The position numbers and the translations under genes were made by a program. The notes beneath the pieces were generated by a model that saw only the letters and a list, made by a program, of their open reading frames with translations, was not told the origin of the DNA and ran no database searches. A DNA stretch of 64,000 nucleotides from a virus, in the IMG/VR virus record IMGVR_UViG_3300043185_000079, one strand, 5' to 3'. The first letter of the stretch is position 1. The number at the start of each line of letters is the position of its first letter. Positions 1,460-41,702 of the stretch are shown here, piece by piece.

Positions 1460-1954
1460 ATGCACGAGGACGACGACATCCAGCCCGAGAATCTCAAGGC
1501 TCCCGAGAAAGAGCCCGATGCGAGTCCTGAACTCGCGAAGATCGAGCGGCAGTCGATCCATGAGGCCATCGCATCCCTCAATGATGCCCAGCTTCAAGAG
1601 CGGATCGACGCGGAACGGGCGGCCCGCCGTCGAGAGCACGAAGAGAAGACTCGGGTCTTCAAGGTACGCAGGACGGAAGAGGCCAGGCGTGCCCGTACAC
1701 AACGAGTCCGGGCCCTCGTCAGTGCCGAGGAGAAGGTGCAGGCGCACGTTGCCGCCGCCTCGCGGTCCATCCGGGCCGCTATCCGCGAACTCACGGATCT
1801 CCCCCTACCGCGCCACTCGCGGGAGGCGAGGGAACAGAGGCGAGCCATCACCACGCTGGGAACAGCACTGGGATCTCTCCGGGCAGCCGGTCGCCGCATG
1901 TCCGTGTCCGAAGACGCCGACATTGATCCCGATCTCGATCTTGATGTCGGGTGA
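1460..1954 (+). CDS. Hypothetical coiled-coil protein
   Basis: 164-aa charged helical ORF between terL and the portal. Confidence 0.65.
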   Translation: MHEDDDIQPENLKAPEKEPDASPELAKIERQSIHEAIASLNDAQLQERIDAERAARRREHEEKTRVFKVRRTEEARRARTQRVRALVSAEEKVQAHVAAASRSIRAAIRELTDLPLPRHSREAREQRRAITTLGTALGSLRAAGRRMSVSEDADIDPDLDLDVG

Positions 1955-1995
1955 ACCTACGATGAAGACCATGATCCCACAGACGCGAGGACGCT

Positions 1996-3939
1996 ATGCC
2001 GGCTGAGGGCACGAAGAACGCCATCGCTGGGTCGGCAAGCCCCTCGTCTCTCAAGAAGAACGACGACGAGGTCGTGGTGGGCACGGTCGAGCAGCGAAGA
2101 GGACGGCCCGAACGCGTGGGCGTGGACACCATGAGAACGGCATCGGCCGGGAACGCTCAGGTGGCCGAGGATAGTCGTCGAGGGGTTCAAGTTGGAAAAC
2201 CTTCCCGTGTTGTCACGGGAACCATGCGTGGCCGGGCTGGTCCTCCCAGCTTCCGTGACAAGGTAGCGGCGGCATGTGGCCCTGGATCGGGGAGTTTCGG
2301 TGGCCTTGGCGGCGCTGGGGGCGTTGTCGGCGGGGGAGGAGGGAGCGGCGGGGGAGGAGGGTTCTCTGGCAACTTCGGACCGGGCAGTGTCGCGCAGGCC
2401 AGTTCGGGCAACTTCTACAGTCCCGAACTCAGCACGGACTTCCTGGAGCTTCCACAGTCTCTCAACGAACAGTGGAACTACTACAGGTTTTTCTACAACA
2501 ACGAGCCGTTCGTCGGACAGGCTATCGATCTACACACGGAGCTGCCGCTGTCGAAGGTCCGGCTGGCTCGCCCGAGGGCTCAGACCCGCGAACTCGCCGA
2601 TCAGGCTCTCCGGTTTTGCGAGAAGTGGATCAACCGGATCGGACTCCTGCAGCGGCTTATTGAGATTGTTCACGAGTACTACCTGATCGGCGAGGTGTTC
2701 ATCTTCTGCGAGGACGCGAACCCGGACATGCCGCAGGAGGTCCGACAGAAGGTGGTGCGCGAGGTCAAGCCCGACGGCTCCCTGGTCGAGACATGGGTGG
2801 ACTACGATGACGCCGACGCGCGAGCGGTGCGGTGGATGAAGAAGAACTACAGGGGCTGGACGGCCATCCGCGTGCTGCCACCAGAGCAAGTCCACATCGA
2901 GACATTCCCCTTCACGAGCCAGGCTCTCATCGAGCTAATTCCTGACGCCAAGACGAGGCATGTCATTAACATGGCGGACCAGGGCGACGAAAGGGCCTGG
3001 CGCATTGTCGAATCCATGGACTCCGCCGTCGTGGATGCCGTGCGCGGTGGCGCGAACATCCCCCTGAGCACCGATCCGGACGGGGGCTCTTTTGTCCACT
3101 ACATGGCGAACAAGAAGTCCCAGTATGAGCCCAGGGGCCACAGTATCCTGCAGCGATGTTTGAGGGTCTTGGTATTTTCTGACAAACTGAGACAGGCTCA
3201 GACTCAAATTGCTTCGCGGCACATGACCCCGATCCGTCTCGTCTACGCTGAGGACATGGACGAGACGGACACGGAGGCGCTGCGCGACCAGATTGATCTC
3301 GCCTTGCAGGACCCCGACTACTCGATCGTGACCAACTTCCAGGTCACGTGGGAGGAGATGAACAGTAACGGCCGTTTGCTTGAGCTGTCCTCAGAGTACG
3401 ACCTCATCAACCGCCAGCTCTACGCGGGTCTCGGCGTCACCGAGGCGCTCCTCAACGGCGAGTCGAGCTATTCCGGCGACCGCATCAACCTGGAAGTCAT
3501 CAACACGAGGTACATGCTCCTCCGCGAGAACATCCAGAACCTCGTGGAGGAGAACTTCTTCAAGCCCATGTGTCGACGCATGGGGTTCGTCGAGGAGGAT
3601 GAGGACGGCAACCTGGAAGTCATCTACCCTCGCCTGTCCTTCACGCGGCTCGCTCTCCGGGACAACCAGGACACCTTCGACGCGCTGTTCCAGCTCTACC
3701 AGAAGGGCTCGCTGGACGTGGAGACCATCCTGGATCTACTGAACATCGACCCCGTGACCGTGCGCGAGCGCCTGGAGCGGGATTTTGCGACGTATAACGA
3801 CGCGAACTTCAACGAGGTTCTTCGGTCGATGTACGGACGAGTCGGTGACCAGATCGTGGAGGGGTCGGACCTGGTGGAGAGGATCGCCAAGACCCTCGGG
3901 CTCGAGTACAAGAAGCCCGAGCAGGCTGGCCGTTTCTAG
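1996..3939 (+). CDS. Portal protein with long Gly-rich N-terminal extension
   Basis: Position after terL; 647 aa; portal-like segments (FVGQAIDLHTELPLSK, YEPRGHSILQRCL, GLGVTEALLNGE). Confidence 0.85.
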   Translation: MPAEGTKNAIAGSASPSSLKKNDDEVVVGTVEQRRGRPERVGVDTMRTASAGNAQVAEDSRRGVQVGKPSRVVTGTMRGRAGPPSFRDKVAAACGPGSGSFGGLGGAGGVVGGGGGSGGGGGFSGNFGPGSVAQASSGNFYSPELSTDFLELPQSLNEQWNYYRFFYNNEPFVGQAIDLHTELPLSKVRLARPRAQTRELADQALRFCEKWINRIGLLQRLIEIVHEYYLIGEVFIFCEDANPDMPQEVRQKVVREVKPDGSLVETWVDYDDADARAVRWMKKNYRGWTAIRVLPPEQVHIETFPFTSQALIELIPDAKTRHVINMADQGDERAWRIVESMDSAVVDAVRGGANIPLSTDPDGGSFVHYMANKKSQYEPRGHSILQRCLRVLVFSDKLRQAQTQIASRHMTPIRLVYAEDMDETDTEALRDQIDLALQDPDYSIVTNFQVTWEEMNSNGRLLELSSEYDLINRQLYAGLGVTEALLNGESSYSGDRINLEVINTRYMLLRENIQNLVEENFFKPMCRRMGFVEEDEDGNLEVIYPRLSFTRLALRDNQDTFDALFQLYQKGSLDVETILDLLNIDPVTVRERLERDFATYNDANFNEVLRSMYGRVGDQIVEGSDLVERIAKTLGLEYKKPEQAGRF

Positions 3940-3961: not shown

Positions 3962-3981
3962 CCGATACCGTGGGAGAGACC

Positions 3982-6051
3982 ATGGTGCTCCCATCGATCG
4001 ATCTCCCGACTCGCGAGAGTATCGGACATCCTGCGGACACCCCGGCCAGGGTCGGAATTCTCGTCCACATGGCTCGACCCTCCAGGCGCCGCGAGTACAG
4101 CATGTCTCGGTGCATGGGGGAGGGTTGCAAGCGGTCCCCTGAGATCGAGTGCATCTGGGCCGACGGTCGTGGCCGCGCCTGGTTCTGTGAGCGACACTTC
4201 GACGCCTGGGCTGCGAAAGACACGGACGGAGGACTCCCGAAGGCTATCGTCAAGCAGCGCAGGGTTCCTGACGGTGTGGTGGGCGAAAAGTACGGCGAGT
4301 ATCCCGAAGCCAAGACGGCTGCGGGGGCCCAGTTCATCGTCGTGTCCGCGAAGGGCCCTGGACAGTGGCCTACCGACCCCGTCCAAGTCATGTCCCGGGA
4401 AAGGGCCCTCGACTACCAGTCCGCGGGTGTCGTGATAGCCGGGTTTCGCACGGAGCGCGAGGCTGAGGAATTCGCAGACAAGATGCGTGACGCTGCTATC
4501 GACGTGACGGCGCCCGACGGGACGATCGTGTTCTCCGGGCGTCTCCTCGACTTCTCCGATCTGGCTCCGCGCCTCGGACTCAGGTTCGTCGACCGAGGGC
4601 GGCTTTTGCAGATCCTGCACCGTCCCACGACGGTGATCGGATCCGGCAGGCGCCAGATGACGGTCACGCGCCGCGCGGGCAAGACCGCCAAGGCCACCGG
4701 ATGCAAGACAGGCGACGGTCACAGCGTTGGGCTGTTCATCCCGCTCCCGCGAGATTTGGCCAAGAAGTTCCCTTCGCTGGGCGAGAATGACGACTCACCC
4801 TCCCATGTGACATTCCTGTACATCGGAGATTTCAAGGGAAAACGGAAGCAGGAGCGGCTCGTCGCCGTCCTACGAAGCTGCTTGCGTCGTTGGTGGCCCT
4901 CCTGTCGGGCGACACTCGGAGACTTGGCCTACTTCGATCACCACGACAAGGATCGCCGCGTGCCTCACGTCCAGGTCGACTTCGACAAGGACATGAGTGG
5001 ATTCAAGCACCGGCTGCGACAGGAACTTCACGAGGCCGGCATTGATGTTGGCGACACGTTCCCCGAGTACAAGCCCCACGTCACACTCGCTTACATGCCG
5101 GGCATGGATAGCGAGTGGGAAGGCCCTGTTCCGAAGGGGTCGTGGGACTTCGACACAGTCGAGATCTGGGGACTTCCGGAGGTCCACAAGATCAAGCTGG
5201 GGCCGTCGATTCACAAGATCTCGGAGGAGTGGGTTCTCCAAGTGATTGCTCGTCGTGTCGCGATGAAGCATTATGCTGCCGGTTGGCCGGACCGCGGCAG
5301 AGTAGCATCGGTATCCGTGAACGCGACGCACAGGCGCAACGTCACCCTCGTCAAGTGGCTATCCGACTTGGCGCAACATCTCGGCGTCGCAAGGGACACG
5401 TACGTCGTGGGTGGGGCCGTGCGAAATTTCATCCTCGGCGAGCCCATCAAGGACGTGGATGTCGTCATCGACACCATCAAGGCCGGCAGGGATTCTGAAT
5501 GGCTGGCGCAGCAGGTGGCCAAGGCGATCCCGGTCCCGACCAACGTGACAACGAACCAGTACGGAGTGGCCATTCTCACCGTCAAGGGCGACTGGGTCCT
5601 CGACGACGAGAACCTCCGCGGCGAGATCATCGAAATCGCCAACGCGCGCAAGGAGAGCTACGGAGGCGAGACGGGCAAGGGTTATAAGCCGCACATGGTA
5701 GAGCCCGCCACCATCGAGGAGGACCTCAGGCGAAGGGATTTCACGGTTAATACGCTGATGTGGAGGTTGCTCGACTTGGCACACGGACCCGACCGGGCCG
5801 AGGTCGTCGATCTGATGGGATGTGGTCGGCGAGATCTTGAGCAGCGAATACTTCGATGCCCGCAGGATCCAGATATCACTTTTTCGGATGATCCGACAAG
5901 GATGCTACGTCTGGTGCGGTTCATGTCCAGATACAACATGAAAGTATCTCCCGACGTAGCGGCAGCAGTGCGTCGCAACGCGCCCAAGCTCAAGAATGCT
6001 CCTTGGGAGGCCATCGCTTCGGTCCTGATGCAGACTCTGGAGGGACGGTAG
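3982..6051 (+). CDS. Multidomain protein: Cys-rich N-terminus, 2H phosphoesterase, class II CCA-adding/poly(A) polymerase head-neck domain
   Basis: Two HxT motifs (SHVTF 4804, PHVTL 5077); VGGAVR, DVD, EDLRRRDFTVN and DDPTRMLR nucleotidyltransferase motifs. Start uncertain (3970, 3982 or 4069). Confidence 0.88.
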   Translation: MVLPSIDLPTRESIGHPADTPARVGILVHMARPSRRREYSMSRCMGEGCKRSPEIECIWADGRGRAWFCERHFDAWAAKDTDGGLPKAIVKQRRVPDGVVGEKYGEYPEAKTAAGAQFIVVSAKGPGQWPTDPVQVMSRERALDYQSAGVVIAGFRTEREAEEFADKMRDAAIDVTAPDGTIVFSGRLLDFSDLAPRLGLRFVDRGRLLQILHRPTTVIGSGRRQMTVTRRAGKTAKATGCKTGDGHSVGLFIPLPRDLAKKFPSLGENDDSPSHVTFLYIGDFKGKRKQERLVAVLRSCLRRWWPSCRATLGDLAYFDHHDKDRRVPHVQVDFDKDMSGFKHRLRQELHEAGIDVGDTFPEYKPHVTLAYMPGMDSEWEGPVPKGSWDFDTVEIWGLPEVHKIKLGPSIHKISEEWVLQVIARRVAMKHYAAGWPDRGRVASVSVNATHRRNVTLVKWLSDLAQHLGVARDTYVVGGAVRNFILGEPIKDVDVVIDTIKAGRDSEWLAQQVAKAIPVPTNVTTNQYGVAILTVKGDWVLDDENLRGEIIEIANARKESYGGETGKGYKPHMVEPATIEEDLRRRDFTVNTLMWRLLDLAHGPDRAEVVDLMGCGRRDLEQRILRCPQDPDITFSDDPTRMLRLVRFMSRYNMKVSPDVAAAVRRNAPKLKNAPWEAIASVLMQTLEGR

Positions 6052-6102: not shown

Positions 6103-6543
6103 ATGGCTGACCCAAGGAAAGCACTCAAGGAGATGAAGGCACTGGGTCTGCTGGACGTGGTGTCTGAGATGATCCGGGAACAGAAGCCGTTCGCTACCTA
6201 CATGGCCAACCAGCTCAGAGCCGACAGGCGCGTCCAGCTCCTTCTCGACATGATGGACCTTGGCGTCCCGGCCAGTATGCCCCTGTCCTTCCTCGACGCG
6301 GCCGGACGACAGCGCCTGCGCGAGCTGACCGTATCGATGTCTGAGGACGAGGCGTCGAGGCTCGTCGATCTCCTGATTAAGCCGCCCGTGGACAGCATGC
6401 GCGTCATCACAGAGCTTGCCCTGGAGGGGCCGGCGCGGGCCGGGATCCTGCCCGCAGCCAGGCAGCTGATTCTCGCGCACCCGTGGCTGGCTAACGATTC
6501 CCGCCGGCTGACGGAGGAGGTGATCCGGCAGTGGACCAAATGA
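6103..6543 (+). CDS. C-terminal (body/tail) part of the CCA-adding enzyme, split off by an in-frame TAG
   Basis: Same frame as the upstream ORF; begins MADPRKALKEMKALGLL, the expected P..AL..L...GLL continuation of class II CCA enzymes. Alternative start 6079. Confidence 0.7.
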   Translation: MADPRKALKEMKALGLLDVVSEMIREQKPFATYMANQLRADRRVQLLLDMMDLGVPASMPLSFLDAAGRQRLRELTVSMSEDEASRLVDLLIKPPVDSMRVITELALEGPARAGILPAARQLILAHPWLANDSRRLTEEVIRQWTK

Positions 6544-6692
6544 TCACCCGTGTCGCCGCCCGACATGCCGTGCTCCGTTCGGCAACGGGTTACTTCCGCG
6601 AGGGCGAGGACATCCTGTTCGATCGCTACAACAAGGCCGGAAGAGGAACCGGACGATGGGCCTCTTCAACATCTGGAAGTTGTCTGAGGTGA
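6540..6692 (+). CDS. Small ORF (MITRVAARH...), possibly the frameshifted N-terminus of the next gene
   Basis: ATGA overlap with the previous stop; carries the RVAARH motif; overlaps the open upstream frame of the 6656 ORF. Confidence 0.4.
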   Translation: MITRVAARHAVLRSATGYFREGEDILFDRYNKAGRGTGRWASSTSGSCLR

Positions 6693-9600
6693 GAGGCCTG
6701 CCTCCAAAAACCGGACGTGGAGTCGCGTTTCATGGTACGCGGTCGAAGAATCTCGATCACCTGCGGCGTTATGGGCTCGTGCCTGGAGCACGCAGTGCGT
6801 ACACGGACGCCTATAGTAAGTACGACGACGGGCGTCATCTGTTCTTCACAGACAATGAGGACTTGGCGCGCCATTACGGAGACCTGATTCTGCGATTCCC
6901 TTGGCCAAGCGAAGCCAAGCCTGATGTTAACGAATTCGGACGCTATCTTCCTGGACAGTTCGTCTCCTTGCGGAAAATCCCGCCAGACGAGATCGATGTT
7001 TTGCGTGAGGGTACTTGGGAACCTCTCGTTGGAGGCTTGTCGAAGCAGGCCTGCATCATCGTCGGCAAGGACTTCGACGGCCACCTCTGTCTCCTCAAGA
7101 ACCGGGATCGGTCGTACGACGTCAAGCTCCAGATCATGCACATGGAGTTCAACGGCGTCGAGATGGCGTTCGTACTCGATCTCGAGACCGGCTACCTGGA
7201 AGGGGTCAACGAGCACGGGATCGGCGTTGTCAACACGACGCTCATGGTGCTTCATGATGAGGCAGAAGGGCACTCGACCAAAACCAAGGGCAAGACGACG
7301 CTCAAGTCGAAGGATGGCCCGAAGATCTTCCACGCCCTCATACAGGACAATCTCCAAGACGCGGTCGATGTTCTCGTGAGTTTCCGGGGAGGGATCCGCG
7401 GCCACACGTTCGTGGCCGACGGACAGACGCTGCTCAGTATTGAGTGCACTCGAAAGAACCCGGCCCGGGTACATCATCTCGATCCGGGGAGGGTCAACAC
7501 GAGGACCAACCATGGCGTCTCATATCCCGAGGCTGGGTACACGCGCGGCGAGGACTATGTCTCGTCCATCGTCCGTCGATGGGAGGCGCAGAAGCGGATT
7601 CAAGGGGTGAAGCGGCCAGAGGCCGCTGCTCCGGCCCTCGCAACGCTGATCGACGAGGCCGACAGCCCGTTCAATCCTGTCCGAGTGACTGACAAGATGC
7701 GGACGACGAGCCAGCTCCTCATCGATACGAGCACTCCGTCTCTCTACCTCTACCTTATTCCAGGTCACGCGCGCGTCACCAAGATTCTCAATCTCCTTCC
7801 CGGAGGCAGAGCACCGAAGATTCCCGTCCGGGTGTTTCGCTACCGCAAGCGGATGGAAGACCGAGACTTTGAGGACGACGGCCATGAGATGAAGGATGAA
7901 GTGGCAGATCCAGGAGGTGACTTGCTGGAGAAACGAACTGCTCGCTATAAGGACAAGAAGACGGTCAAGACCAAAGACGGCGACGAGCGAGTCATCTACG
8001 AGTACGGCCCGCGACAGGTCCTCAACCGCAACAAGGCCAAGGCGGAGCGTATCGAGAATCTGCGCAAGCAGATGTCGGCTCTCCGTCGGAAGGTCAAGAA
8101 GGACCTGGAGTCGTCCGACGACCAGAAACGCGCTGTTGCTCTCGCCGTCGCGCTGATGGACGAAACCTATGAGCGGCCCGGCAACGAAGCCAGTGCCAGC
8201 GAGGGTCACTACGGCGTGACGACGTGGCAGAACCGGCACGTCAAGTTCCGCAACGGAAAGGCCACGATCACATACGTCGGGAAGTCTGGAGTCGAGCACA
8301 AGAAGGTCGTCGAGACACCGGCAGTCGTGAAGGCTCTCAAGATGCTCTGCAAGGGCCGAGGGAAGGATGATCGCCTCATCGACGTCGAGGCGGCTGACGT
8401 CAACGAGTTCCTACGCTCGTTCGAGATTACGGCCAAGGACATCCGAGGGTTCCACGCGAACCGCGAGATGAAGGACCGTCTCAAGAGGATCCGCCGTGAG
8501 GGGCCGGATCTCCCGCGGCCCCTCAAAGATCGAGACAAGATCCTGAAAGAGGAGTTCAAGCAGGCGCTGGCCGAAACCGCTGAGGCCGTAGGCCATACCG
8601 AATCCACGCTGCGCAGCCAGTACCTCGTCCCCGGGCTCGAGGACGAGTACATGAAGGACGGCACCGTCAGCGACAGCCACGTGAAGTCCGGGGGGGCGGC
8701 CCTTCTAGGCGCTCCTGGGGTCCAGGAGCGCCCAGAAGGCGCGCTGAGGGTCGCCGCCACCCGAGGCACACCGACGGAGCGGAGGATCCTGGCGAACGCC
8801 CTGCTTGCCCCGGTGCTCGTAGTGCGCGATCGCCGCTGGTGGCTCGACGAGGCGCCGTCCCTCTACCGCCTGGCCCGTGACCACGAGCGGCCTAGACCTG
8901 TCATCGACGGTCTCCGGTTCGACCCCGACCTGTTCGCGATGCTCTGGTACGAGGACGAGGACGGGAACAGGTTGCCCGAACCGCCCATTGGGGACCTCGC
9001 AATTCCGGAGGACTCCCATACACAGCATTCGAGGTTCCCCAACGTGCTGCGGCACACCATCCTGTTGCTTAATGACGACGGGACGTCGTCGAGCCTCGCG
9101 GCTGGGGAAAGTTCCTTTCCCTCTGATCTCGTGACGCAGATGGTTCGCAGCGGCGACTGGGACACCGCAGACGCAATCATGGTTGCCGGCCAGGCCTGCG
9201 AGCGATGCCTCAACGTCCTGCTCCACCATTACGGGATCGGGGATGGCTACCCGTTCGGGTCCGAGGACTATTGGCGGGCGAACACAGTCTGTTCGATGTG
9301 CGAGGACATCGGCCGTCGAATGGCGACGAAGTCTCCCGCCGAGAAGGAGGATGAGAACGTCGAGAAGATGCTACGGCCGGAACCGAAGAAGAAGCCTCCG
9401 CGCTACGACCTCCGCAACAACAGAACGCTGGAGGACCGGGACGAGGACCTGGAGGGTATGGGCGCAGGAGATCGTGGGGATCGAGACTTGAGTCTCAAGT
9501 GGAACAAGGTCGCTCATCGGGTGGCGTTCCGGTGGCTGGCCGTTCCCCTCGCGCCCGCTCCTCTGCGTGTGGCAATGCGGCGCATCGCCAGGCAGTTCCC

Positions 9601-11692
9601 CTCCGAGTTCCAGGACGAGGTGGCACACCAGCGGTTCACGCATCCAGAGACGCGCAACTCAGTCGGGTTTGGGTCGTTGCCTAGCGAGGAGCAGTCGAAG
9701 ATCTACAAGCGGTGGAAAAGCAAGGCGCGGGAAGACAAGGCTCCACCAGAGGATGCCGAGAAATCCGAGAAAGGCAAGGAGGATGACGTCGAGCGTGAAC
9801 TCGACGAGGCACGCGATCGGGTCGATTCTCTGGAGGATAAGGTTGATAAGGCCAAGGACCAGATCAAGGAATCGCGCGAAAACATCAAGGGGATCAAGAA
9901 TCTGCTAGAGAAGGCTGGCGAGACGGCCCGAGGACAGCTCGAAGGAAAGCTGCGCGAGGAGGTCTCCAAGATGCGGAAGGCCGAGGACGCGCTGGAGGAA
10001 GTCACCGACGAATTGGAGGCGGCGCGCAAGCGTGTCGATCAGCTCAAGGCGGAGCGTAAGGCTCCCACGAGCCGCGAAGACAAACGACGCGAGGATGAAG
10101 AGAAGCGCCGCAAGGAACGTGCCGAGGAGACTCTGGACGAGGTGCGCGATGCGGTGCGGGGGATGGTGTCGAAGGACTCCGACATCCCCGAGGACGTTCG
10201 GGCACAGATTGAGACCGCCTTCGCCAACTTGAGCGAGGAGCAAGTAGAGGATTTTTCCGAGGCATTCCAGAAGTCGTTGGGGAAGCTCGTCAGAACGGAC
10301 GCTTCGTCCGAGGAGGCTGCGAACCTGGCCAACGCCTCGGTCCGCGCCGATCTGAGTGAGATTGAGGATCCCGCAGAGCTGGCACGCACAGTTGCCGAAG
10401 TCGCGTACGCACGCAACGTGGTGACCAATCCTCTCGTCGTGGGTGGGAAGCCGCTCGGACAGACGAAGATGGACGATGCTGGCTACTCCGGTCGTGCTAT
10501 GGAATCGTTCCGTCAGTTTCAGCGTCTCAGCCCTGCTCTCCGCGAGAGTGCGGCGGAAAAGATCGCGGAAGAGCTTCGCGGTCTCGACGAGGACTCCGAT
10601 AAGGCACAAGAGCTACAGGCGATTCTCACAGGCATCAACACGGCTCATATCGCGGACACAGGCCACGCTTTGCCGGGTCGACCGCAGCCGAACAAAGGTG
10701 CCGCGGCTCTCATCCGTCGCATGGTGGAGAACGGTCAAGCCGAGACGATGTTCAAGCCGGTCGAGGACTTCTTCGCCGACGACAGCCGCGCCGCGATGCA
10801 AAAGGCGCTCTCGGAAATGGACGACGCGGAGGTTGCTGACTTCGTGATCGGAGACGACGGGGATCACCCATTCGGTAAGCTCCGCGAGGCCATGCAGGAG
10901 AAGGGCGCCAGTGAGTACAAGCAGCTCATCAAGGACTTCCTGATCCAAGATTTCATGAGTGACATCTGGGGTGATCGGGCCGTACGCGATTACATGGAGT
11001 CCGCTGGTTTCGCCGACTTCGATAATCCGGAGGCCAGGGCGCAGTTGCTTCGGGACACGAGGTACGCAACTGCACCCGAGGCAGACATGCAGGCGATCGC
11101 CAGGGCGCAGGCGGCGATCGCGGCCGGTCAGAAACCTGATCCAGAGGATGAGGAGCGTGCTCGAAATTTCCTCGATCCAGAGACGGGGGGCGGGATCCGT
11201 GGGAAACTCCGCAAGCTCATGGAGATCTTGCAATCCAAGGTCAAGAAGCGTGTTGTCACCCCCGCGACCGCGGTGATCAACCACTTCCTGGAGACGGGCG
11301 AGGCCGAGGTCCTCCACCAGGAGACCCTTCCACATCCTGACGAGGGCCGGGGCGGGGACACGGAGGCCAAGGAAGACGAGGGACACGGGTTGGGCGACGT
11401 GTGGAAAACTGACGAGGGGAACTGGCGCGCCAAGAATCTCGACGGAGTGCCCAAGACTTTCGATACGCGAGAGAAGGCCCAAGCATACGCCAAGGGCGGC
11501 AAGGACCGCAGGAAGCCATCGCGCGGCAGCGAGGCCCCTGGCGAGGAATTCTCGGCCGAGTTCACCGTGCCCGTCGAAGAACGAGGACCGACGAGGTTTG
11601 CCAACCATGTCGCGAACGCTTGGCTGGCCCAAGTGCGCAAATGCCACCCAGACGATCCGGGGCGTCCGCGAGTGGTTTTTGATACGGCTTGA
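6656..11692 (+). CDS. Polyvalent protein: ART/Tpt1-like domain, Ntn-hydrolase, DNA topoisomerase IB, unknown domains, coiled coil
   Basis: FHGT...GL...FFT..A..YG ART signature (6731); C-IIV...KNRD Ntn-hydrolase start (7052); TopIB catalytic set RPGNE, GKSG, KDIR, GHT, SQY (Tyr 8621); long E/K coiled coil at about 9750-10150. Confidence 0.85.
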   Translation: MGLFNIWKLSEVRGLPPKTGRGVAFHGTRSKNLDHLRRYGLVPGARSAYTDAYSKYDDGRHLFFTDNEDLARHYGDLILRFPWPSEAKPDVNEFGRYLPGQFVSLRKIPPDEIDVLREGTWEPLVGGLSKQACIIVGKDFDGHLCLLKNRDRSYDVKLQIMHMEFNGVEMAFVLDLETGYLEGVNEHGIGVVNTTLMVLHDEAEGHSTKTKGKTTLKSKDGPKIFHALIQDNLQDAVDVLVSFRGGIRGHTFVADGQTLLSIECTRKNPARVHHLDPGRVNTRTNHGVSYPEAGYTRGEDYVSSIVRRWEAQKRIQGVKRPEAAAPALATLIDEADSPFNPVRVTDKMRTTSQLLIDTSTPSLYLYLIPGHARVTKILNLLPGGRAPKIPVRVFRYRKRMEDRDFEDDGHEMKDEVADPGGDLLEKRTARYKDKKTVKTKDGDERVIYEYGPRQVLNRNKAKAERIENLRKQMSALRRKVKKDLESSDDQKRAVALAVALMDETYERPGNEASASEGHYGVTTWQNRHVKFRNGKATITYVGKSGVEHKKVVETPAVVKALKMLCKGRGKDDRLIDVEAADVNEFLRSFEITAKDIRGFHANREMKDRLKRIRREGPDLPRPLKDRDKILKEEFKQALAETAEAVGHTESTLRSQYLVPGLEDEYMKDGTVSDSHVKSGGAALLGAPGVQERPEGALRVAATRGTPTERRILANALLAPVLVVRDRRWWLDEAPSLYRLARDHERPRPVIDGLRFDPDLFAMLWYEDEDGNRLPEPPIGDLAIPEDSHTQHSRFPNVLRHTILLLNDDGTSSSLAAGESSFPSDLVTQMVRSGDWDTADAIMVAGQACERCLNVLLHHYGIGDGYPFGSEDYWRANTVCSMCEDIGRRMATKSPAEKEDENVEKMLRPEPKKKPPRYDLRNNRTLEDRDEDLEGMGAGDRGDRDLSLKWNKVAHRVAFRWLAVPLAPAPLRVAMRRIARQFPSEFQDEVAHQRFTHPETRNSVGFGSLPSEEQSKIYKRWKSKAREDKAPPEDAEKSEKGKEDDVERELDEARDRVDSLEDKVDKAKDQIKESRENIKGIKNLLEKAGETARGQLEGKLREEVSKMRKAEDALEEVTDELEAARKRVDQLKAERKAPTSREDKRREDEEKRRKERAEETLDEVRDAVRGMVSKDSDIPEDVRAQIETAFANLSEEQVEDFSEAFQKSLGKLVRTDASSEEAANLANASVRADLSEIEDPAELARTVAEVAYARNVVTNPLVVGGKPLGQTKMDDAGYSGRAMESFRQFQRLSPALRESAAEKIAEELRGLDEDSDKAQELQAILTGINTAHIADTGHALPGRPQPNKGAAALIRRMVENGQAETMFKPVEDFFADDSRAAMQKALSEMDDAEVADFVIGDDGDHPFGKLREAMQEKGASEYKQLIKDFLIQDFMSDIWGDRAVRDYMESAGFADFDNPEARAQLLRDTRYATAPEADMQAIARAQAAIAAGQKPDPEDEERARNFLDPETGGGIRGKLRKLMEILQSKVKKRVVTPATAVINHFLETGEAEVLHQETLPHPDEGRGGDTEAKEDEGHGLGDVWKTDEGNWRAKNLDGVPKTFDTREKAQAYAKGGKDRRKPSRGSEAPGEEFSAEFTVPVEERGPTRFANHVANAWLAQVRKCHPDDPGRPRVVFDTA

Positions 11693-12007: not shown

Positions 12008-12484
12008 ATGTCATCCAAACCGATCACGAAGGAAGCGGCCCTCAAGGTGTCCCGCCTCCTGGACCAAGCAGCCACCACGTTCCAGAAGCACCACGTTGCT
12101 CTCGGGATCAAGCCGAAGATCGCGAATGACTTCGCACTTCGGTGTGACATCCTCTCCGACCACGTGGAGAAGCAGGCGGGCATCGACCGTCGCGCGCAGA
12201 TGGATCCCAAGGAAAACTACACCGAGGATGCTCTGGGCCCGGATGACTTCGACCCAGCCGAGATCGGCGAGCAGACTCCCGGCGCGCTGCTGCGGAACGA
12301 GGACGAGCCCTACATGGACACGTTCAACCAGCAGTGGTTCGATCAGCTTCGCGAAGTTCAACAGACGGGTCAGTTCTCCAACGCGAAGACCGCCGCGCAG
12401 CTCATCAAGCACATGGCCGGCCTCCTCCACGCTCACGGCATCCCTCTCGTCGTCCGCAGGAAGAAGAGCCCGAAGGTCGCCTGA
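12008..12484 (+). CDS. Hypothetical protein, probable internal head protein
   Basis: AGGAG SD; KEAA, KQAG, RRAQ and KTAA motifs; head module context. Confidence 0.7.
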   Translation: MSSKPITKEAALKVSRLLDQAATTFQKHHVALGIKPKIANDFALRCDILSDHVEKQAGIDRRAQMDPKENYTEDALGPDDFDPAEIGEQTPGALLRNEDEPYMDTFNQQWFDQLREVQQTGQFSNAKTAAQLIKHMAGLLHAHGIPLVVRRKKSPKVA

Positions 12485-12541: not shown

Positions 12542-13171
12542 ATGAAACGTACAGCAGACGCAGGAAACTGGCAGGCCCGCGGACAAGAGTTCGCGGTGGG
12601 GCAAGCTGTGCGTCTCGTCAATGGCAGCCCAACCGACGAGGGTCGCGTCACCGCTGTCTGGCCTGGAATCGGATGCGTCGATGTGCAGTGGCCACACACG
12701 TCGTATCGCCACTTGGTTGAGGATCTCCAGATTGTCAACCCGGGCGAGGACGAGTTCGTCGCGCCCATGCACGAGGACGTGCCGGGAGGGCCCCCGTCCT
12801 CGGCGTGGGTCTCGCAAGGGGCCCCTCAGACGAACGAGATCACGCACGAGGACCCACGAGTCGAGTTCGTCCACGACATCGCGGGCAAAGTGGCATCTCA
12901 ACCGTCTGCGCAGCGGGTGGCGATCGCGTTCGTGAAGCATTCTCTTTACTGGCACGCTCGGGACCGGAAGTACCGCGTCAGCCGGGACGAACACGCAGAG
13001 GGCCGGTATAGATGCCCCACCCGTGGGTGCGAACAGATGTTGCGCCGTGCAACCTACAAGATGGAGAACGGATCTCCGATCAAGCTGCTCGCCTGCGGCT
13101 CGTGCTTGTTCATGATCCGCGAGCATGACGTACTCTCTGACCACTGCACTCCACATGAGGAGACCTGCTAG
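12542..13171 (+). CDS. Hypothetical protein with C-terminal Zn ribbon, probable head protein
   Basis: CPTRGC...CGSC; KRTA, KVAS and RVAIAF motifs. Confidence 0.7.
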   Translation: MKRTADAGNWQARGQEFAVGQAVRLVNGSPTDEGRVTAVWPGIGCVDVQWPHTSYRHLVEDLQIVNPGEDEFVAPMHEDVPGGPPSSAWVSQGAPQTNEITHEDPRVEFVHDIAGKVASQPSAQRVAIAFVKHSLYWHARDRKYRVSRDEHAEGRYRCPTRGCEQMLRRATYKMENGSPIKLLACGSCLFMIREHDVLSDHCTPHEETC

Positions 13172-36527: not shown

Positions 36528-36620
36528 CCCGCGTGGTGGAGCGCTGGATCGACCGGACGCGTCTGGTCCCAGCCGCGCTACCCGCTAACTGTTGCCCTTA
36601 CCCGAGGGATAGCGTGGGCG

Positions 36621-37190: not shown

Positions 37191-37199
37191 AGACAGGAC

Positions 37200-37538
37200 A
37201 TGGCGTCCGAGAGAAACGCGGCGTCTCCGAGCGCTGGATGGGTCCCGAGACTGGTCCTTGCCTACTCGACGAATCCCGTGCTTGATGCGAAGGATCCCGT
37301 CGACGTCGAGTTCGACCCGTATTGTCCGTCCAACGGGTGGTCCGCGAACTGGCTTTGGAGACAGGTCGAGTTGACGTCGCCTCCTGGCTCACAGGGCAAC
37401 TTCAAGATTCGTGGAGGCTACGACTACAGGGAGCCGTACCGGAGGCCTTGTCGCGCAGACCCACACAGTATCTGCCCAGGGGATTGGTTCGTGGATGAGG
37501 AGGGCGAGATTCTCATCCGTGGAGAGAAGGGCAGGTAG
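37200..37538 (+). CDS. Hypothetical protein
   Basis: ORF with AGGA SD. Confidence 0.5.
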   Translation: MASERNAASPSAGWVPRLVLAYSTNPVLDAKDPVDVEFDPYCPSNGWSANWLWRQVELTSPPGSQGNFKIRGGYDYREPYRRPCRADPHSICPGDWFVDEEGEILIRGEKGR

Positions 37539-39546: not shown

Positions 39547-39957
39547 ATGCCACGTTTGCGAAGAGCTGGAAGCCAGGCAGGGTGGGCTCTGATCTCCGGC
39601 GGGGTGAATGCCGCCAGGGTCGACGTTCACCGCCTCCACCAGATCGTGGGGAAGGTTCTGCGTCTCGTCGAGCAGAGCAAGGATCGCGAGCACATCTATC
39701 AGGTCGCAGGTGACGTCATCCTGGGCATCCCCCAGATTCTCGATCGTCTGGAACAGCAGCTCGACGAGACCGGCTACGCCTTATCAATCATGGGGAAGGA
39801 CCATCTCAAGGACCGCCTCCCTCTTTCTCGTCGCACGCGAGTGGACGAGACCGTCGAGGGAGCGCCAGCGTTCAGCGTGTCAATGTTGAAGGACTCGGCA
39901 CGTCGAGTGGCGGAACGACACATCGCGCGTCGAGTGGATCGACGCGGGAGGTCGTAG
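39547..39957 (+). CDS. Hypothetical protein, probable head-associated protein
   Basis: N-terminal RRAG and C-terminal RVAERH motifs. Confidence 0.65.
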   Translation: MPRLRRAGSQAGWALISGGVNAARVDVHRLHQIVGKVLRLVEQSKDREHIYQVAGDVILGIPQILDRLEQQLDETGYALSIMGKDHLKDRLPLSRRTRVDETVEGAPAFSVSMLKDSARRVAERHIARRVDRRGRS

Positions 39958-41702
39958 TGCCCGACTTCGGGATCCGCAAGCGAGCAATGGCCCAGGACAG
40001 CACGGATCCTGTGCCCGAGGACGTCATCCGCGAGGAGATCCGCGCCGCGGCCGAGATTCTCAGGACGGCTTACCGATCCGGGTGGCAGGAATGGCCCGGG
40101 TGGAAGACCGTTGTCGATGAGAAGAGCGAGAAGGGCATCTTCCCGCGCGACACTGAGGACAGCAGCACGGAACGGGGACAGAGCAGGCTCGATCATGCGT
40201 GGCCTGTCCAGCTTCCGCAGCCTCGGGAGAAGGAACGCGCGTTGCCACTTCCCTCCGACTTCGACAAGAAACGCGAGAAGCGAATTGGCCCGACTTACTA
40301 CAACAAGAACCGAAAGGTCCCGTACCGCACACATCCAGAGAAGGGGGACGAGTACGGCCATCCCGTGAAACTGGATTACAACTATGACAGGCGACGCCAG
40401 GAGGTGACCGCCGGGGATACGCGGGAGGAAGACGGATCTCCGGAGGAGCGAGAGGCCGCCGGGTTGTTTCCCGCCAAGCATCAGCAAAACCAGCGTGGCC
40501 AATCGCGTGTCTACTACAAGCAGTGGTACCTGCGTAACCGCGAGCCCATCAAACGCAGGGAGAGAGTCAAGTACCAGACTAGGCTCAAGCACGATCCGCG
40601 CGACAAGCTCCGTCGGAAGTATCGGCGGCTGTACCCCCACAGATACAAGCGGCGAGGACTCGGGCCGTCGACGCCCGCCGAGCGATCTCGAGAGTGGCGC
40701 GAGGAGAAGGCAAAAGAGCGACAAGCCTCGGTGTATCACGCAGGGCTTAAGGCGCTGGCGAGCGCCATGGAGATCCTTGGGATCGACCGAGTTGCTGCGA
40801 ACTGGCCCGTTGACTGGGGGACACACTACAAGAAGGTCGAGCCGCCCGAACAACTTGACCAGAACCATCCACCAGCACAGCCGCGCAGCACGACGCCGCG
40901 CAGCGATCCGTCCAAACAGAAGGGGGAATCTCTCCGTGCACCCGATCTCGACCGCAAGCACCAAAAGGGCTTGAAGTGGCAGATCGAGCCCAGGGCTCCC
41001 GGGGGCGCCTACCCGATCCGCGAGGTGAACAACCCGGGGAATGGCTCGGGCAAGGTCATCCCGATGTGGGGAGACTTCGTCAACAACACGCAACAGATGC
41101 CGGACGGGCGGCAGGACCGGTATGTCCGAAACGATAACTTCGATGTGAAGACGGCCGCCACGCTCGGTGAAATCCTTGCCCGCGTCGACAGGAAAATCCG
41201 AGCGCGTGCCGTCGGCCTCGATCCCCAGCTTCAGCGGACCGACACGAAGAATTGGATCTGGACGTGGCGTGTTGGGAAGCACGCGGTCAAGGTTCAGGCG
41301 TTCAAGCGCGGCACCGCGTCGAACTTCGACAAGGTGAATCTCAGGGTCTCGTGTAGCTGCCCGTTCTGGCAGTGGTGGGGTCCCGAGCATTGGGGGAAAC
41401 GGGACGACTACCTGCGCGGGGAACCCCGTGGCACGGCAACCCCCCCAATGATTCGCGATCCTTTCCACTGGCGGCCGGTGTGCAAGCACGCCTATGCCGT
41501 TCTCCGTCGTTCGCAGAAATTCTTCGTGAGGCCGGAGAAGTCGCCTCTACGCCATCTGGCTCGGTTTTCAGCCGATAGTCCCGAGTCGGTCGTGATCGAG
41601 TGTTTGCCCACGCCTTCGCCAGAGCAAGTAGCTCTTGCCGCGGTCACGCGCGAGATCGGTCAGAGGGTCGCCCGCAGGTATCTTGGCGAGGAGGGGGTCT
41701 GA
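39957..41702 (+). CDS. Large basic protein with C-terminal SWIM Zn finger
   Basis: VSCSC...VCKH; RTAY, RQAS, RVAA and KTAA linkers; terminal RVARRY. Confidence 0.75.
   Translation: MPDFGIRKRAMAQDSTDPVPEDVIREEIRAAAEILRTAYRSGWQEWPGWKTVVDEKSEKGIFPRDTEDSSTERGQSRLDHAWPVQLPQPREKERALPLPSDFDKKREKRIGPTYYNKNRKVPYRTHPEKGDEYGHPVKLDYNYDRRRQEVTAGDTREEDGSPEEREAAGLFPAKHQQNQRGQSRVYYKQWYLRNREPIKRRERVKYQTRLKHDPRDKLRRKYRRLYPHRYKRRGLGPSTPAERSREWREEKAKERQASVYHAGLKALASAMEILGIDRVAANWPVDWGTHYKKVEPPEQLDQNHPPAQPRSTTPRSDPSKQKGESLRAPDLDRKHQKGLKWQIEPRAPGGAYPIREVNNPGNGSGKVIPMWGDFVNNTQQMPDGRQDRYVRNDNFDVKTAATLGEILARVDRKIRARAVGLDPQLQRTDTKNWIWTWRVGKHAVKVQAFKRGTASNFDKVNLRVSCSCPFWQWWGPEHWGKRDDYLRGEPRGTATPPMIRDPFHWRPVCKHAYAVLRRSQKFFVRPEKSPLRHLARFSADSPESVVIECLPTPSPEQVALAAVTREIGQRVARRYLGEEGV

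What the first reader, a model, noticed from the sequence alone, without database searches (positions are those of the whole stretch)
1460..41702. Two short peptide signals pervade head-region proteins: a candidate system for packaging and maturing enzyme polyproteins in the virion
Seen: a [KR]-x-A-(S/G/A/T) motif recurs densely in the scaffold (KKAS, KAAA, RIAS, KTAT, KMAS, KEAS, KTAG, KNAA, KAAS, KTAS), the portal leader (RTAS, KVAA), the protease (KRAS, RTAA, KAAS) and the 12008/12542 proteins. It also sits at domain junctions of the multidomain proteins: KTAA, KTAKA and RVAS in 3982; KQAC, RTAR, RVAA and RMAT in 6656; KSA and RVA in 25177; RTAY, RQAS, RVAA and KTAA in 39957. A second motif, (R/H)-V-A-x-x-(H/W/Y/F), lies near termini or linkers: RVAMKH 5254, RVAARH 6549, RVAFRW 9518, HVANAW 11606, RVAIAF 12914, RVAERH 39904, RVARRY 41664. 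Known: T4 gp21 and phiKZ gp175 prohead proteases cut internal head proteins at short x-x-E motifs, and T4 uses a capsid-targeting peptide. Inference: this phage uses an Ala-specific protease ([KR]xA|) and an RVAxxW/H-type targeting helix to load enzyme polyproteins into the head, cut them into free enzymes and inject them at infection.
Basis: partly seen in the sequence, partly recalled or inferred. Interest (0 to 1): 0.88.

Follow-up and report, generated by a model that had tools for sequence, protein, structure and literature searches.

The report
Huge-phage capsid cargo tag-and-cut code
An uncultured huge phage and its many relatives mark head-associated proteins with a short Lys/Arg-x-Ala motif that looks like the cut site of the phage's own head-maturation protease, and with a separate portable "RVAxxY" helix that looks like an address label, so the proteins (RNA-repair enzymes, a topoisomerase, an amidase) that this phage lineage probably loads into its capsid may be predictable from sequence alone; nothing has yet been measured.

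Summary
Both motifs are real but not as "pervasive" as claimed. [KR]-x-A-[SGAT] is 7-fold over-represented in the scaffold (12 vs 1.7), and over-represented in all 59 scaffold relatives. The refined motif is [KR]-x-A, with Ser preferred next. It is invariant on both sides of the protease catalytic domain, and it precedes the N-terminal nucleophile Cys of an Ntn hydrolase in 49 of 51 homologues. In a phage with a T4-type protease that leader ends in L-N-E instead, so the leader end follows the protease lineage. This argues for cutting by the prohead protease after [KR]-x-A. By count the motif is at chance in the multidomain enzymes 3970, 6656 and 25150; only particular junction sites there are conserved.

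The second motif extends to [SM]-[AP]-x-[RK]-V-A-x-[RA]-[YFHW]-[LM]. It occurs 9 times vs 1.4 expected in the window and 20 vs 5.9 in a complete 45%-GC relative. It sits mostly at extreme N- or C-termini or in linkers of mosaic proteins (topoisomerase IB, 2H phosphoesterase, CCA-type nucleotidyltransferase, HAD, ART, Ntn amidase), often next to a [KR]-x-A site.

Best reading: an address-and-cut system like T4 CTS/gp21, with a herpesvirus-like Ala specificity. Packaging and injection remain inferred. This scan noted the same system in adjacent windows of this genome and in other phages.

The parts
13173..16151 (+). Prohead protease gene (GTG start). Catalytic domain, then an acidic linker, then a conserved C-terminal helical domain; interrupted by an intein.
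   Evidence: PHROG 18299 head maturation protease. Relatives align from this start. Model of an intein-free relative: VIA Z 8.7 to T4 gp21 (rmsd 3.0, 127 aligned) and Z 7.8-7.4 to herpesvirus proteases.
13812..15296 (+). 495-aa LAGLIDADG intein inside the protease (starts with Cys, ends His-Asn, +1 Cys).
   Evidence: Hint/intein/LAGLIDADG Pfam hits. Relatives such as L002 and L006 join the flanks without it. Boundaries.
13284..13295 (+). RTAA: conserved R-x-A site in the disordered N-terminal leader of the protease.
   Evidence: R and A are invariant in 24 relatives, consensus R-V-A-S-G. Model pLDDT is below 50 for residues 1-34.
15570..15581 (+). KAAS: predicted release site directly after the protease catalytic domain.
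   Evidence: The K-x-A column is kept in about 33 relatives, at the border with a hypervariable acidic linker.
16199..17632 (+). Scaffold protein (ATG 16199). It has 12 [KR]xA[SGAT] sites at 16244, 16514, 16577, 16598, 16769, 17066, 17294, 17345, 17432, 17447, 17495 and 17543. The last lies 25 aa before the C-terminus, ahead of a highly conserved tail.
   Evidence: 12 vs 1.7 expected. All 59 relatives are enriched. Sites are conserved in register. Coordinates.
6656..11692 (+). 1678-aa multi-enzyme (polyvalent-type) protein: N-terminal 132 aa unassigned, Ntn hydrolase (7052-7855), topoisomerase IB (8024-8608), CxxC module, coiled coil, C-terminal tag.
   Evidence: Pfam Topoisom_I E 7e-27. Ntn fold shown by AF2 pLDDT 93 and Foldseek hits to IAT, BSH and PVA. 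Modules are shuffled among relatives.
7043..7054 (+). KQA followed by Cys133, the predicted N-terminal nucleophile of the Ntn hydrolase.
   Evidence: In 51 non-redundant homologues, P3 is K/R in 49 and P1 is A 41, G 6, S 2. Cys is invariant.
9518..9583 (+). Two tag copies in a linker (RVAFRWL at 9518, RVAMRRI at 9566), preceded by K-V-A.
   Evidence: PSSM scores 15.2 and 13.8. Homologous block after TopoIB in relatives.
11606..11623 (+). C-terminal tag HVANAW(L), 28 aa from the end, preceded by R-F-A.
6540..6692 (+). 50-aa ORF starting M-I-T-RVAARH: the N-terminal tag region of the polyprotein, -1 out of frame with 6656.
   Evidence: tblastn to the N-termini of P0001 and P0002. Frames shown.
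3970..6051 (+). 693-aa protein with a 2H phosphoesterase (4723-5175) and a PolyA_pol/CCA-type nucleotidyltransferase (5395-6018). A weak tag, RVAMKHY, lies at 5254 in the linker.
   Evidence: Pfam and PHROG hits. PSSM 9.7. The same modules are fused differently in relatives.
12542..13171 (+). 209-aa protein: variable N-terminal part, KVAS site (12887), tag RVAIAF (12914), then a conserved Zn-ribbon-like C-terminal domain.
   Evidence: Alignment of 32 relatives. In some relatives it is fused to the C-terminus of 900-1340-aa proteins.
12008..12484 (+). 158-aa head-module protein enriched in [KR]xA sites. Relatives carry a KVAMDF element.
   Evidence: 3 vs 0.59. L002 paralogue 6 vs 1.2. The module is fused into a giant protein in L049.
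39547..39957 (+). 136-aa protein: conserved 115-aa domain, K-D-S site (39889), C-terminal tag RVAERHI (39904).
   Evidence: PSSM 20.9.
39957..41702 (+). 581-aa protein with a C-terminal tag RVARRYL (41664), an internal RVAANW (40788), and 5 [KR]xA[SGAT] sites.
1996..3939 (+). Portal. The KVAA site (2260) is in the non-conserved leader, ahead of the conserved core that starts at 2407.
   Evidence: PHROG portal. K-V-A is kept in the leaders of L076 and L002.
18511..19389 (+). HK97-fold major capsid protein, unusually conserved. Candidate (untested) receptor of the tag.

Best explanation
This huge-phage lineage appears to use a two-part peptide code for its head proteins.

(1) The cut site. The prohead protease has the fold of T4 gp21 and herpesvirus assemblin and is interrupted here by an intein. 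It cuts after [KR]-x-A (P3 basic; P1 Ala, sometimes Gly or Ser; Ser preferred at P1'). This would dismantle the scaffold, detach the scaffold's conserved C-terminal tail, free the protease domain from its own leader and C-terminal domain, trim the portal leader, and separate the modules of multi-enzyme proteins.

(2) The tag. A separate amphipathic helix of about 11 residues, [SM]-[AP]-x-[RK]-V-A-x-[RA]-[YFHW]-[LM], is placed at an N-terminus, a C-terminus or a linker, often right next to a cut site. It acts as a portable docking tag that recruits cargo into the assembling procapsid and is then cut off.

The tagged cargo is topoisomerase IB, a Cys-Ntn amidase, 2H phosphoesterase, a CCA-type nucleotidyltransferase, and in relatives HAD phosphatase and ADP-ribosyltransferase. 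The Ntn amidase would be switched on only by the cut that exposes its Cys.

Shown: that the motifs exist, are conserved, and where they sit. Inferred: cleavage, docking, packaging and delivery to the host.
For: Cut site.
- The window scaffold has 12 vs 1.7 sites. All 59 scaffold relatives are enriched.
- An unbiased k-mer scan of 25 non-redundant scaffolds gives K.AS 76 vs 9 and R.AS 59 vs 5.5. Ser is 4.2-fold enriched after [KR]xA.
- Sites are conserved in register within otherwise variable acidic sequence. The last site lies 21-27 aa before the C-terminus in nearly all, ahead of an ultra-conserved tail.
- K-x-A is invariant after the protease catalytic domain and R-x-A is invariant in its leader.
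- The Ntn-hydrolase fold is confirmed (pLDDT 93; IAT, BSH, PVA hits at E 3e-8). Its invariant Cys follows [KR]-x-[AGS] in 49 of 51 contexts.
- The exceptions end in I/L-N-E. Chryseobacterium phage MA9V-1 has the leader ...L-N-E before the Cys and encodes a Peptidase_S77 (T4 gp21-type) protease. Four large relatives of the window have no S77 match. So the leader end tracks the protease lineage, not Ntn chemistry.
- In a complete relative at 45% GC, [KR]xAS occurs 150 times vs 59 expected, so this is not a GC effect.

Tag.
- 9 vs 1.4 in the window and 20 vs 5.9 in the complete relative.
- Positions outside the search pattern carry information: -3 S/M 1.26 bit, +4 R 0.92, +6 L 1.10.
- 24 of 71 non-redundant copies lie within 30 aa of the C-terminus, against 7.7% expected.
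- The tag is kept at homologous places at 30-45% identity.
- It is found on different modules and in different orders.
- [KR]xA is 5-7-fold enriched at offsets -4 to -2 and +9/+10 from the tag.
- There are no tags in the tail genes or the accessory island of the window.

Protease fold: VIA Z 8.7 to T4 gp21 and 7.8-5.6 to herpesvirus proteases.
Against: - No proteomic, biochemical or structural data exist for this clade. The phage G virion proteomics paper reports no cleavage sites.
- Ntn hydrolases usually process themselves, so the site before the Cys is indirect evidence.
- By count the cut motif is at chance in the 3970, 6656 and 25150 proteins.
- Several tags (RVAS, KVAS, RVAA) also satisfy the cut motif, so the tag and the site may not be independent signals.
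- Single-linkage clustering joins most tagged proteins into two mosaic networks, giving 8 groups in all. The number of independent acquisitions is therefore smaller than the raw counts suggest.
- The tag was not found in the head regions of phage G or Tunturi_5.
- In the complete relative, tagged genes are scattered over the genome, not confined to the head module.
Confidence: 0.55

Rival explanations
1. The RVAxx-aromatic element is not an address label. It is an extended, high-affinity recognition or cleavage element of the protease itself (a substrate or exosite motif), and cargo recruitment, if any, occurs through other parts of the proteins.
For: The tag core R-V-A fits [KR]-x-A. About 40% of tags have Ser or Ala at the next position. 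The protease's own leader site has the consensus R-V-A-S-G.
Against: Copies only 3-12 residues from an N-terminus, or 11 residues from a C-terminus, would give a pointless cut. Conservation extends over about 11 residues with a helical hydrophobic face, unlike the 3-residue scaffold sites. Separate [KR]xA sites flank the tags.
Confidence: 0.15
2. The tag serves another step than capsid loading. Examples: an ejection or translocation signal through the tail, binding to packaged DNA, oligomerisation, or recognition by a phage chaperone. The K-x-A cuts are ordinary head maturation.
For: The tag is basic and amphipathic. Tagged genes in the complete relative are scattered over the genome. No receptor was identified.
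Against: Tags are concentrated in genes between portal and protease and just after the capsid gene in the window and in 80 relatives. Tags are adjacent to prohead-type cut sites. The cargo set matches enzyme types predicted to be virion-packaged in polyvalent proteins (PMC5512222; ART-PolyVal hit).
Confidence: 0.12
3. The [KR]-x-A-S elements are not cleavage sites but structural or regulatory repeats of disordered scaffold-like proteins. The Ntn hydrolases process themselves, and the basic P3 residue is a family quirk.
For: Autoproteolysis at a small residue before Cys is the norm for this enzyme class (established knowledge on IAT and PVA; structures hit). No cleavage has been measured.
Against: The leader end switches to I/L-N-E, chemically unlike Ala, in a phage with a T4-type protease. 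The same K-x-A brackets the protease domain and lies 21-27 aa before the scaffold C-terminus in nearly all relatives, the layout of the herpesvirus release and maturation sites.
Confidence: 0.08
4. Both motifs are by-products of an Ala/Arg-rich, high-GC proteome and of post-hoc pattern choice.
For: The window is 61% GC. Motif 1 is at chance in most proteins. The patterns were defined after looking at the sequence.
Against: Composition-matched shuffles. Replication in 80 loci and in a 45%-GC complete genome. Information at positions not used to define the pattern. Conservation in register.
Confidence: 0.02

Closest known systems
Phage T4 capsid-targeting sequence of internal proteins and Alt, removed by prohead protease gp21 (Mullaney and Black 1996, as cited in PMC10052503; PMC9026906)
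   Same: A short peptide addresses cargo to the prohead, and the head protease then removes it. Cargo enzymes are delivered with the DNA. The protease fold is shared (VIA Z 8.7 to gp21).
   Different: T4 cuts after (L/I)-x-E, whereas here the cut follows [KR]-x-A. The T4 tag is only N-terminal, whereas here it is N-terminal, C-terminal or internal and can be tandem. Here the modules are strung into polyproteins. The Peptidase_S77 model does not match.
phiKZ gp175 / SPN3US gp245 prohead proteases and their propeptide-bearing ejection proteins (PMC10052503, PMC7411985)
   Same: Jumbo phage with many internal or ejection proteins processed by one protease at a short motif. Multiple sites occur in propeptides, and the protease cleaves itself.
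   Different: The motif there ends in Glu and the propeptides are N-terminal. No portable helix tag has been defined there.
Herpesvirus assemblin with its release and maturation sites, consensus (V/L/I)-x-A then S (established knowledge; structures hit)
   Same: Ala at P1 and Ser at P1'. One site lies directly after the protease domain, and one lies about 25 residues before the scaffold C-terminus, releasing the capsid-binding tail. The fold is related.
   Different: P3 is basic here, not hydrophobic. Protease and scaffold are separate genes here. No cargo tags are known in herpesviruses.
Encapsulin cargo-loading peptides (established knowledge)
   Same: A short terminal peptide on unrelated enzymes docks them inside an HK97-fold shell. 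It is portable between cargo proteins.
   Different: Encapsulin peptides are not cut off and have a different consensus. Binding of the present tag to the capsid protein is untested.
Polyvalent proteins of phages and conjugative elements (Iyer et al. 2017, PMC5512222)
   Same: Giant multi-enzyme proteins encoded next to portal and head genes, predicted to be packaged and injected. The ART-PolyVal domain occurs in tagged relatives.
   Different: That work proposes embedded metallopeptidases for processing. Here the junctions carry the prohead-protease motif and a shared tag. Topoisomerase IB is mentioned once in that paper and Ntn not at all.

Membership tests
T4-type prohead protease (Peptidase_S77) with CTS system | Protease matches the Peptidase_S77 profile | tested here: not met
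   No Pfam hit for the window protease or for an intein-free relative. No S77 match in four large relatives, while the positive control MA9V-1 matched.
T4-type prohead protease (Peptidase_S77) with CTS system | Cleavage after (L/I)-x-E | tested here: not met
   Conserved sites are [KR]-x-A.
Assemblin / gp21 / HK97-type prohead protease fold | Shared protease fold | tested here: inconclusive
   Model pLDDT 72. VIA Z 8.7 to T4 gp21 (rmsd 3.0, 127 aligned) and Z 7.8-5.6 to herpesvirus proteases. Unrelated MCE-domain rows reach Z 6.8. Foldseek E is only 5e-3.
Assemblin / gp21 / HK97-type prohead protease fold | His-Ser-His catalytic triad in register | not tested
   Invariant His and Ser residues exist in the alignment but were not mapped onto the structures.
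Cys N-terminal nucleophile hydrolases (AAT/C45, choloylglycine hydrolase clan) | Four-layer Ntn fold beginning with the nucleophile on the first strand | tested here: met
   AF2 pLDDT 93, with a strand from residue 2. Foldseek E 3e-8 to IAT 2x1e/2x1d, CV2077, bile salt hydrolases and PVA. PF03417 is precomputed on homologues.
Cys N-terminal nucleophile hydrolases (AAT/C45, choloylglycine hydrolase clan) | Invariant Cys that must become residue 1 | tested here: met
   Cys is invariant in 32 sequences. It is always preceded by a leader of 1-280 residues.
Cys N-terminal nucleophile hydrolases (AAT/C45, choloylglycine hydrolase clan) | Self-processing of the precursor | not testable with these tools
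   Needs an enzyme assay. The covariation of the leader end with protease type argues for cleavage in trans.
Type IB topoisomerase | Match to the catalytic core profile | tested here: met
   PF01028 E 7e-27, 94.7 bits vs cut-off 23.7, residues 457-651.
Polyvalent proteins (Iyer 2017) | Several unrelated effector or enzyme domains in one polypeptide, encoded among head genes | tested here: met
   Ntn hydrolase plus TopoIB plus further modules, between portal and protease. Modules are shuffled among relatives.
Encapsulin-type cargo-loading peptide | Terminal peptide that binds the inner face of the HK97-fold shell protein | not tested
   The terminal position is met. Binding has not been shown by any result here.
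Intein | Insertion with Hint and LAGLIDADG blocks, a Cys start, a His-Asn end, a +1 Cys, and absence from orthologues | tested here: met

The most novel reading that the evidence does not exclude
A sequence-readable 'address and cut' code, consisting of a portable RVAxxY helix plus a [KR]-x-A protease site, defines the complete injected cargo of a very large, uncultivated huge-phage lineage (over 2000 capsid-protein clusters). The cargo includes RNA-repair enzymes, a topoisomerase IB and an amidase zymogen that is activated only by capsid maturation. Gene fusion and fission of cargo modules is neutral because the protease re-separates them. The leader in front of the Ntn nucleophile co-evolves with the specificity of the prohead protease across phage lineages (K-x-A here, L-x-E in T4-type phages), which would give a general way to read protease specificity from genomes.
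Probability: 0.45. Interest if true: 0.82.

Novelty: new variant of a known kind. Interest (0 to 1): 0.72.

Why it matters
If the code holds, three things follow.

1. The set of proteins that a whole lineage of uncultivated huge phages carries into the cell could be listed from sequence alone. It points to an early-infection toolkit of RNA repair, DNA topology and host modification.

2. It gives a second, independent example of the T4 logic, but with a herpesvirus-like Ala/Ser specificity. This links phage and herpesvirus maturation more closely.

3. It explains why the same enzyme modules appear fused in one genome and separate in the next.

The Ntn-hydrolase leader also offers a natural reporter of prohead-protease specificity. 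A short portable tag could be used to load foreign proteins into capsids.

Tried and rejected
- Megablast of 10 kb against cultured phages found nothing.
- No whole genome is held for the window. A complete relative was used instead.
- Sequence search of the protease and of the Ntn domain against PDB sequences gave only chance hits.
- Pfam gave no annotation for 6656 residues 1-132, the CxxC module, the N-terminus of 3970, or the 12008, 12542 and 25150 proteins. The ART assignment for the first module, proposed by another reader, was therefore not confirmed here.
- Complex prediction with capsid protein, scaffold residues 118-200 and the tag segment of the 39547 protein returned no verdict (score 0.30, mark 0.32). 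It says nothing either way.
- The phage G proteomics paper reports no cleavage sites. Literature searches found no description of this motif pair.
- Phage G's head region shows no tag, and its scaffold-like gp21 shows no K-x-A-S enrichment.
- A DNA-level repeat was rejected as an explanation of motif 2 because the codons differ between copies.
- The MCP match (19051) was rejected as a tag. It lies inside the conserved fold at 89-98% identity and scores only 8.0 on the PSSM.
- Counting independent tagged families by single linkage collapsed to 8 groups because of domain shuffling. No claim about the number of independent origins is made.
Full report
**What the window is.** All genes run on the + strand of a 61%-GC segment. 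The order is: terminase large subunit C-terminus, portal (1996-3939), a 2H-phosphoesterase/nucleotidyltransferase protein (3970-6051), a 1678-aa protein with a topoisomerase IB core (6656-11692), two small proteins (12008, 12542), a prohead protease interrupted by an intein (13173-16151), scaffold (16199-17632), a decoration-like protein, and an HK97-type major capsid protein (18511-19389). The capsid protein is 89% identical to that of the 485-kb uncultured phage LR745208.1, 48% to Tunturiibacter phage Tunturi_5 and 39% to Bacillus phage G. It has more than 2000 homologues, and the best 120 clusters are all at least 88% identical. From 19487 to 37538 lies an island of accessory genes: homing endonucleases, PAPS reductase/ParB-like, SET, DUF488, RNase HII, deacetylase, RtcB, phosphatase.

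**Motif 1, statistics.** Against 1000 shuffles of each protein, [KR]xA[SGAT] is strongly over-represented in the scaffold (12 vs 1.72, z 8.5). It is moderately over-represented in the 12008, 12542, protease and 39957 proteins. It is at chance in the 3970 (4 vs 2.3), 6656 (5 vs 6.7) and 25150 (2 vs 2.0) proteins and in the portal. The claim that the motif pervades the multidomain enzymes is therefore not borne out by counts.

**Motif 1, relatives.** I fetched 80 related loci through the capsid protein.
- All 59 scaffold homologues, at 30-65% identity, show the excess (z 1.6-8.1).
- An unbiased gapped k-mer scan of 25 non-redundant scaffolds returns K.AS (76 vs 9.1) and R.AS (59 vs 5.5). These rank among the top words that are not simply conserved blocks.
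- After [KR]xA the next residue is Ser 4.2-fold more often than composition predicts, while Gly and Ala are not enriched. The motif is therefore [KR]-x-A with Ser preferred next.
- The sites are kept in register inside otherwise hypervariable acidic sequence. One lies about 15 residues from the N-terminus, and three lie in the last 60 residues. The last is 21-27 residues before the C-terminus in nearly all relatives, in front of an almost invariant tail.
- Tunturi_5's scaffold-position protein and its annotated DNA ejection protein show the same excess. Phage G's scaffold-like protein does not.

**Motif 1 around the protease.** An alignment of about 33 protease relatives shows an invariant K-x-A immediately after the catalytic domain, where conservation otherwise collapses into an acidic linker (KAAS at 15570 in the window). 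In the disordered N-terminal leader, R and A of R-x-A are invariant (RTAA at 13284). The portal leader keeps K-V-A in the three relatives for which the leader is available.

The model of an intein-free relative has moderate confidence (pLDDT 72). It aligns best to T4 gp21 (VIA Z 8.7, rmsd 3.0, 127 residues) and to herpesvirus proteases (Z 7.8-5.6). Some unrelated rows score near Z 6.5. A site after the protease domain and a site about 25 residues before the scaffold C-terminus is the layout of the release and maturation sites of herpesvirus assemblin, which also cuts between Ala and Ser (established knowledge).

**A natural reporter of the cut.** This test followed a lead from another window's reader. 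Residues 133-400 of the 6656 protein fold with pLDDT 93 into a Cys-Ntn hydrolase. Foldseek E is 3e-8 to isopenicillin-N acyltransferase, CV2077, bile salt hydrolases and penicillin V acylase. Homologues carry PF03417. Such enzymes need the Cys as residue 1.

In 51 non-redundant homologues the Cys is preceded by K or R at P3 in 49, and by Ala (41), Gly (6) or Ser (2) at P1, with P2 variable. Ntn hydrolases normally process themselves, so this alone would not prove cleavage in trans. The exceptions are informative: the leaders of P0057 and P0058 end in I-N-E and L-N-E. The only cultured-phage homologue, from Chryseobacterium phage MA9V-1, has a leader ending L-N-E before the Cys, and that phage encodes a Peptidase_S77 (T4 gp21-type) protease. 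Four large relatives of the window, three of them 92-100% complete, have no S77 match. The residue set before the nucleophile thus follows the lineage of the prohead protease: Glu with T4-type, Ala with this type. It does not follow any requirement of the hydrolase. This is the strongest argument here for cleavage after [KR]-x-A.

**Motif 2, statistics.** [RH]VAxx[HWYF] occurs 9 times in the window against 1.42 expected, and none of 1000 shuffles reaches 9. Codons differ between copies.

In relatives the motif is kept at the homologous positions of the 12542, 39547 and 39957 proteins at 30-46% identity. It recurs in many other proteins. In 71 non-redundant copies, positions that were not part of the search pattern carry information: -3 is Ser or Met (1.26 bit), -2 is Ala/Pro, +4 is Arg (0.92) and +6 is Leu/Met (1.10). 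The extended consensus is [SM]-[AP]-x-[RK]-V-A-x-[RA]-[YFHW]-[LM]. By spacing this is compatible with an N-capped amphipathic helix, which is inference.

Twenty-four of the 71 copies lie within 30 residues of a C-terminus, against 7.7% expected. Others lie 3-16 residues from an N-terminus. A matrix trained only on relatives finds, in the window, the copies in 12542, 39547, 6656 (three), 39957 and, weakly, 3970. It finds none in the tail genes or the accessory island. The matches in the capsid protein and in an HNH protein score lowest and look unrelated.

**The 6549 instance.** It is not in the 6656 ORF. It lies in a 50-aa ORF (6540-6692) starting M-I-T-RVAARH. This ORF is homologous to the tagged N-terminus of related polyproteins P0001 and P0002, and it is -1 out of frame with the main ORF near 6630-6645. 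I cannot tell whether this is a real frameshift, a programmed one or an assembly error.

**Portability and coupling.** The enzyme modules are shuffled among relatives:
- 2H phosphoesterase fused in front of TopoIB (L071, L032, L034).
- A HAD-like module in that position (L022).
- Ntn hydrolase fused to TopoIB (P0001), to 2H (P0025, P0035), to a nucleotidyltransferase (P0041), to GNAT (P0029) or to PAP2 (P0055).
- A stand-alone TopoIB with the tag 28 residues from its end (L037).
- The 12542-type Zn-ribbon module at the end of 900-1340-aa proteins.

Tags sit in the linkers or at the ends, and P0043 has three in tandem.

[KR]xA is enriched 5-7-fold at fixed offsets from the tag. Its Ala falls at -4 to -2 in 20 of 94 cases, and at +9/+10 in 21 of 96, against a background of 1.5% per position. 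Typical arrangements are an N-terminal tag followed by R-E-A and then the Ntn Cys, or K-K-A-S, two residues, and then a C-terminal tag. In the window, K-V-A-S precedes the 12542 tag, K-V-A and R-F-A precede two 6656 tags, and K-D-S precedes the 39547 tag. The tag is thus placed so that it can be cut away from the module.

**Replication in a complete relative of different composition.** G003 (375,691 bp, 45% GC, judged complete) has 20 pattern matches vs 5.9 expected, with a maximum of 14 in 200 shuffles. About a dozen have the full consensus (RVAxRYM) at residue 6-17 or 11 residues from the end. Their carriers include an ART-PolyVal ADP-ribosyltransferase, a 2H/CPD-like protein, a HAD domain of RNA-repair proteins and a PolyA_pol-type nucleotidyltransferase. 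These are the same enzyme kinds that are fused in the window. They are scattered over the genome rather than confined to the head module. [KR]xAS occurs 150 times vs 58.8 expected genome-wide, and the protease, scaffold and several tagged proteins are among the most enriched. High GC therefore does not explain either motif.

**Interpretation.** The most economical reading is an address-and-cut system. The tag docks cargo in the procapsid. The protease then cuts after [KR]-x-A, dismantling the scaffold, freeing itself, separating polyprotein modules, removing tags and unmasking the amidase. The cargo travels with the DNA. This works like T4 CTS/gp21 and the phiKZ/SPN3US system (PMC10052503), with a cut-site chemistry and site layout like herpesvirus assemblin, and with cargo of the polyvalent-protein kind (PMC5512222).

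It is not a member of the T4 system: the S77 profile and the Glu motif both fail. The receptor of the tag is unknown. The extreme conservation of the capsid protein makes it a candidate, but that is speculation.

The tag core also satisfies the cut motif, so a rival reading is that the tag is an extended protease recognition element. Tags three residues from an N-terminus argue against a purely proteolytic role. No measurement of cleavage, packaging or injection exists for this clade.

**Relation to earlier notes of this scan.** Adjacent windows of the same genome were already read as carrying portable tags and [KR]-x-A junctions. Ntn hydrolases masked by a head-protease site were noted in several other phage genomes. 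I used two of these notes as leads and tested them myself. They are not counted as evidence.

Noticed in passing
window 13812-15296: The prohead protease gene carries a 495-aa LAGLIDADG intein. Relatives lack it (L002, L006), have it at the same site (L008, L032, L050), or have an insertion at a different site (L007, L015).
   Followed up: partly
window 6540-6692: A 50-aa ORF encodes the tagged N-terminus of the 6656 polyprotein but is -1 out of frame with it near 6630-6645. This could be a frameshift mutation, programmed frameshifting or an assembly error.
   Followed up: partly
window 18511-19389: The capsid protein is extraordinarily conserved: over 2000 homologues, the best 120 clusters at least 88% identical. 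The neighbouring scaffold and protease are 30-60% identical in the same relatives.
   Followed up: partly
window 19487-21396: Two LAGLIDADG_2 homing-endonuclease genes with C-terminal HTH domains lie directly after the capsid gene. LR745208.1 has a similar pair at the same place.
   Followed up: no
window 21393-24201: A PAPS-reductase/DUF3440 protein, a zinc-finger protein and a ParB-like protein. The arrangement recalls IbrA/IbrB; this is from memory and was not tested.
   Followed up: no
window 27689-36527: Untagged accessory enzymes: SET domain, DUF488, RNase HII, polysaccharide deacetylase, RtcB RNA ligase (E 1e-94) and a PTP-like phosphatase. RtcB is not tagged although other RNA-repair enzymes are.
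   Followed up: partly
L084 5965-6789 (Chryseobacterium phage MA9V-1): The Ntn-hydrolase homologue has a 12-residue leader ending L-N-E before the Cys. The phage has a Peptidase_S77 match inside a 1349-aa open frame (L085).
   Followed up: partly
L003 12779-15262 and 17611-19197 (Tunturi_5): The annotated DNA ejection protein gp328 (15 vs 4.2) and the scaffold-position protein gp332 (9 vs 2.6) are enriched in [KR]xA[SGAT], with a K-V-A-S site 15 residues before the end of gp332. The cut motif therefore reaches beyond the clade, while the tag was not seen there.
   Followed up: partly
G003 8726-11338 (L086): An 870-aa protein of the complete relative has the strongest [KR]xAS excess in that genome (9 vs 0.9). 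Its identity was not examined.
   Followed up: no
window 46289-48507: Another reader noted a possible split intein with an HNH gene here. I only saw that the HNH-region protein (46788-47624) has a low-scoring RVADTF match that looks like chance.
   Followed up: no
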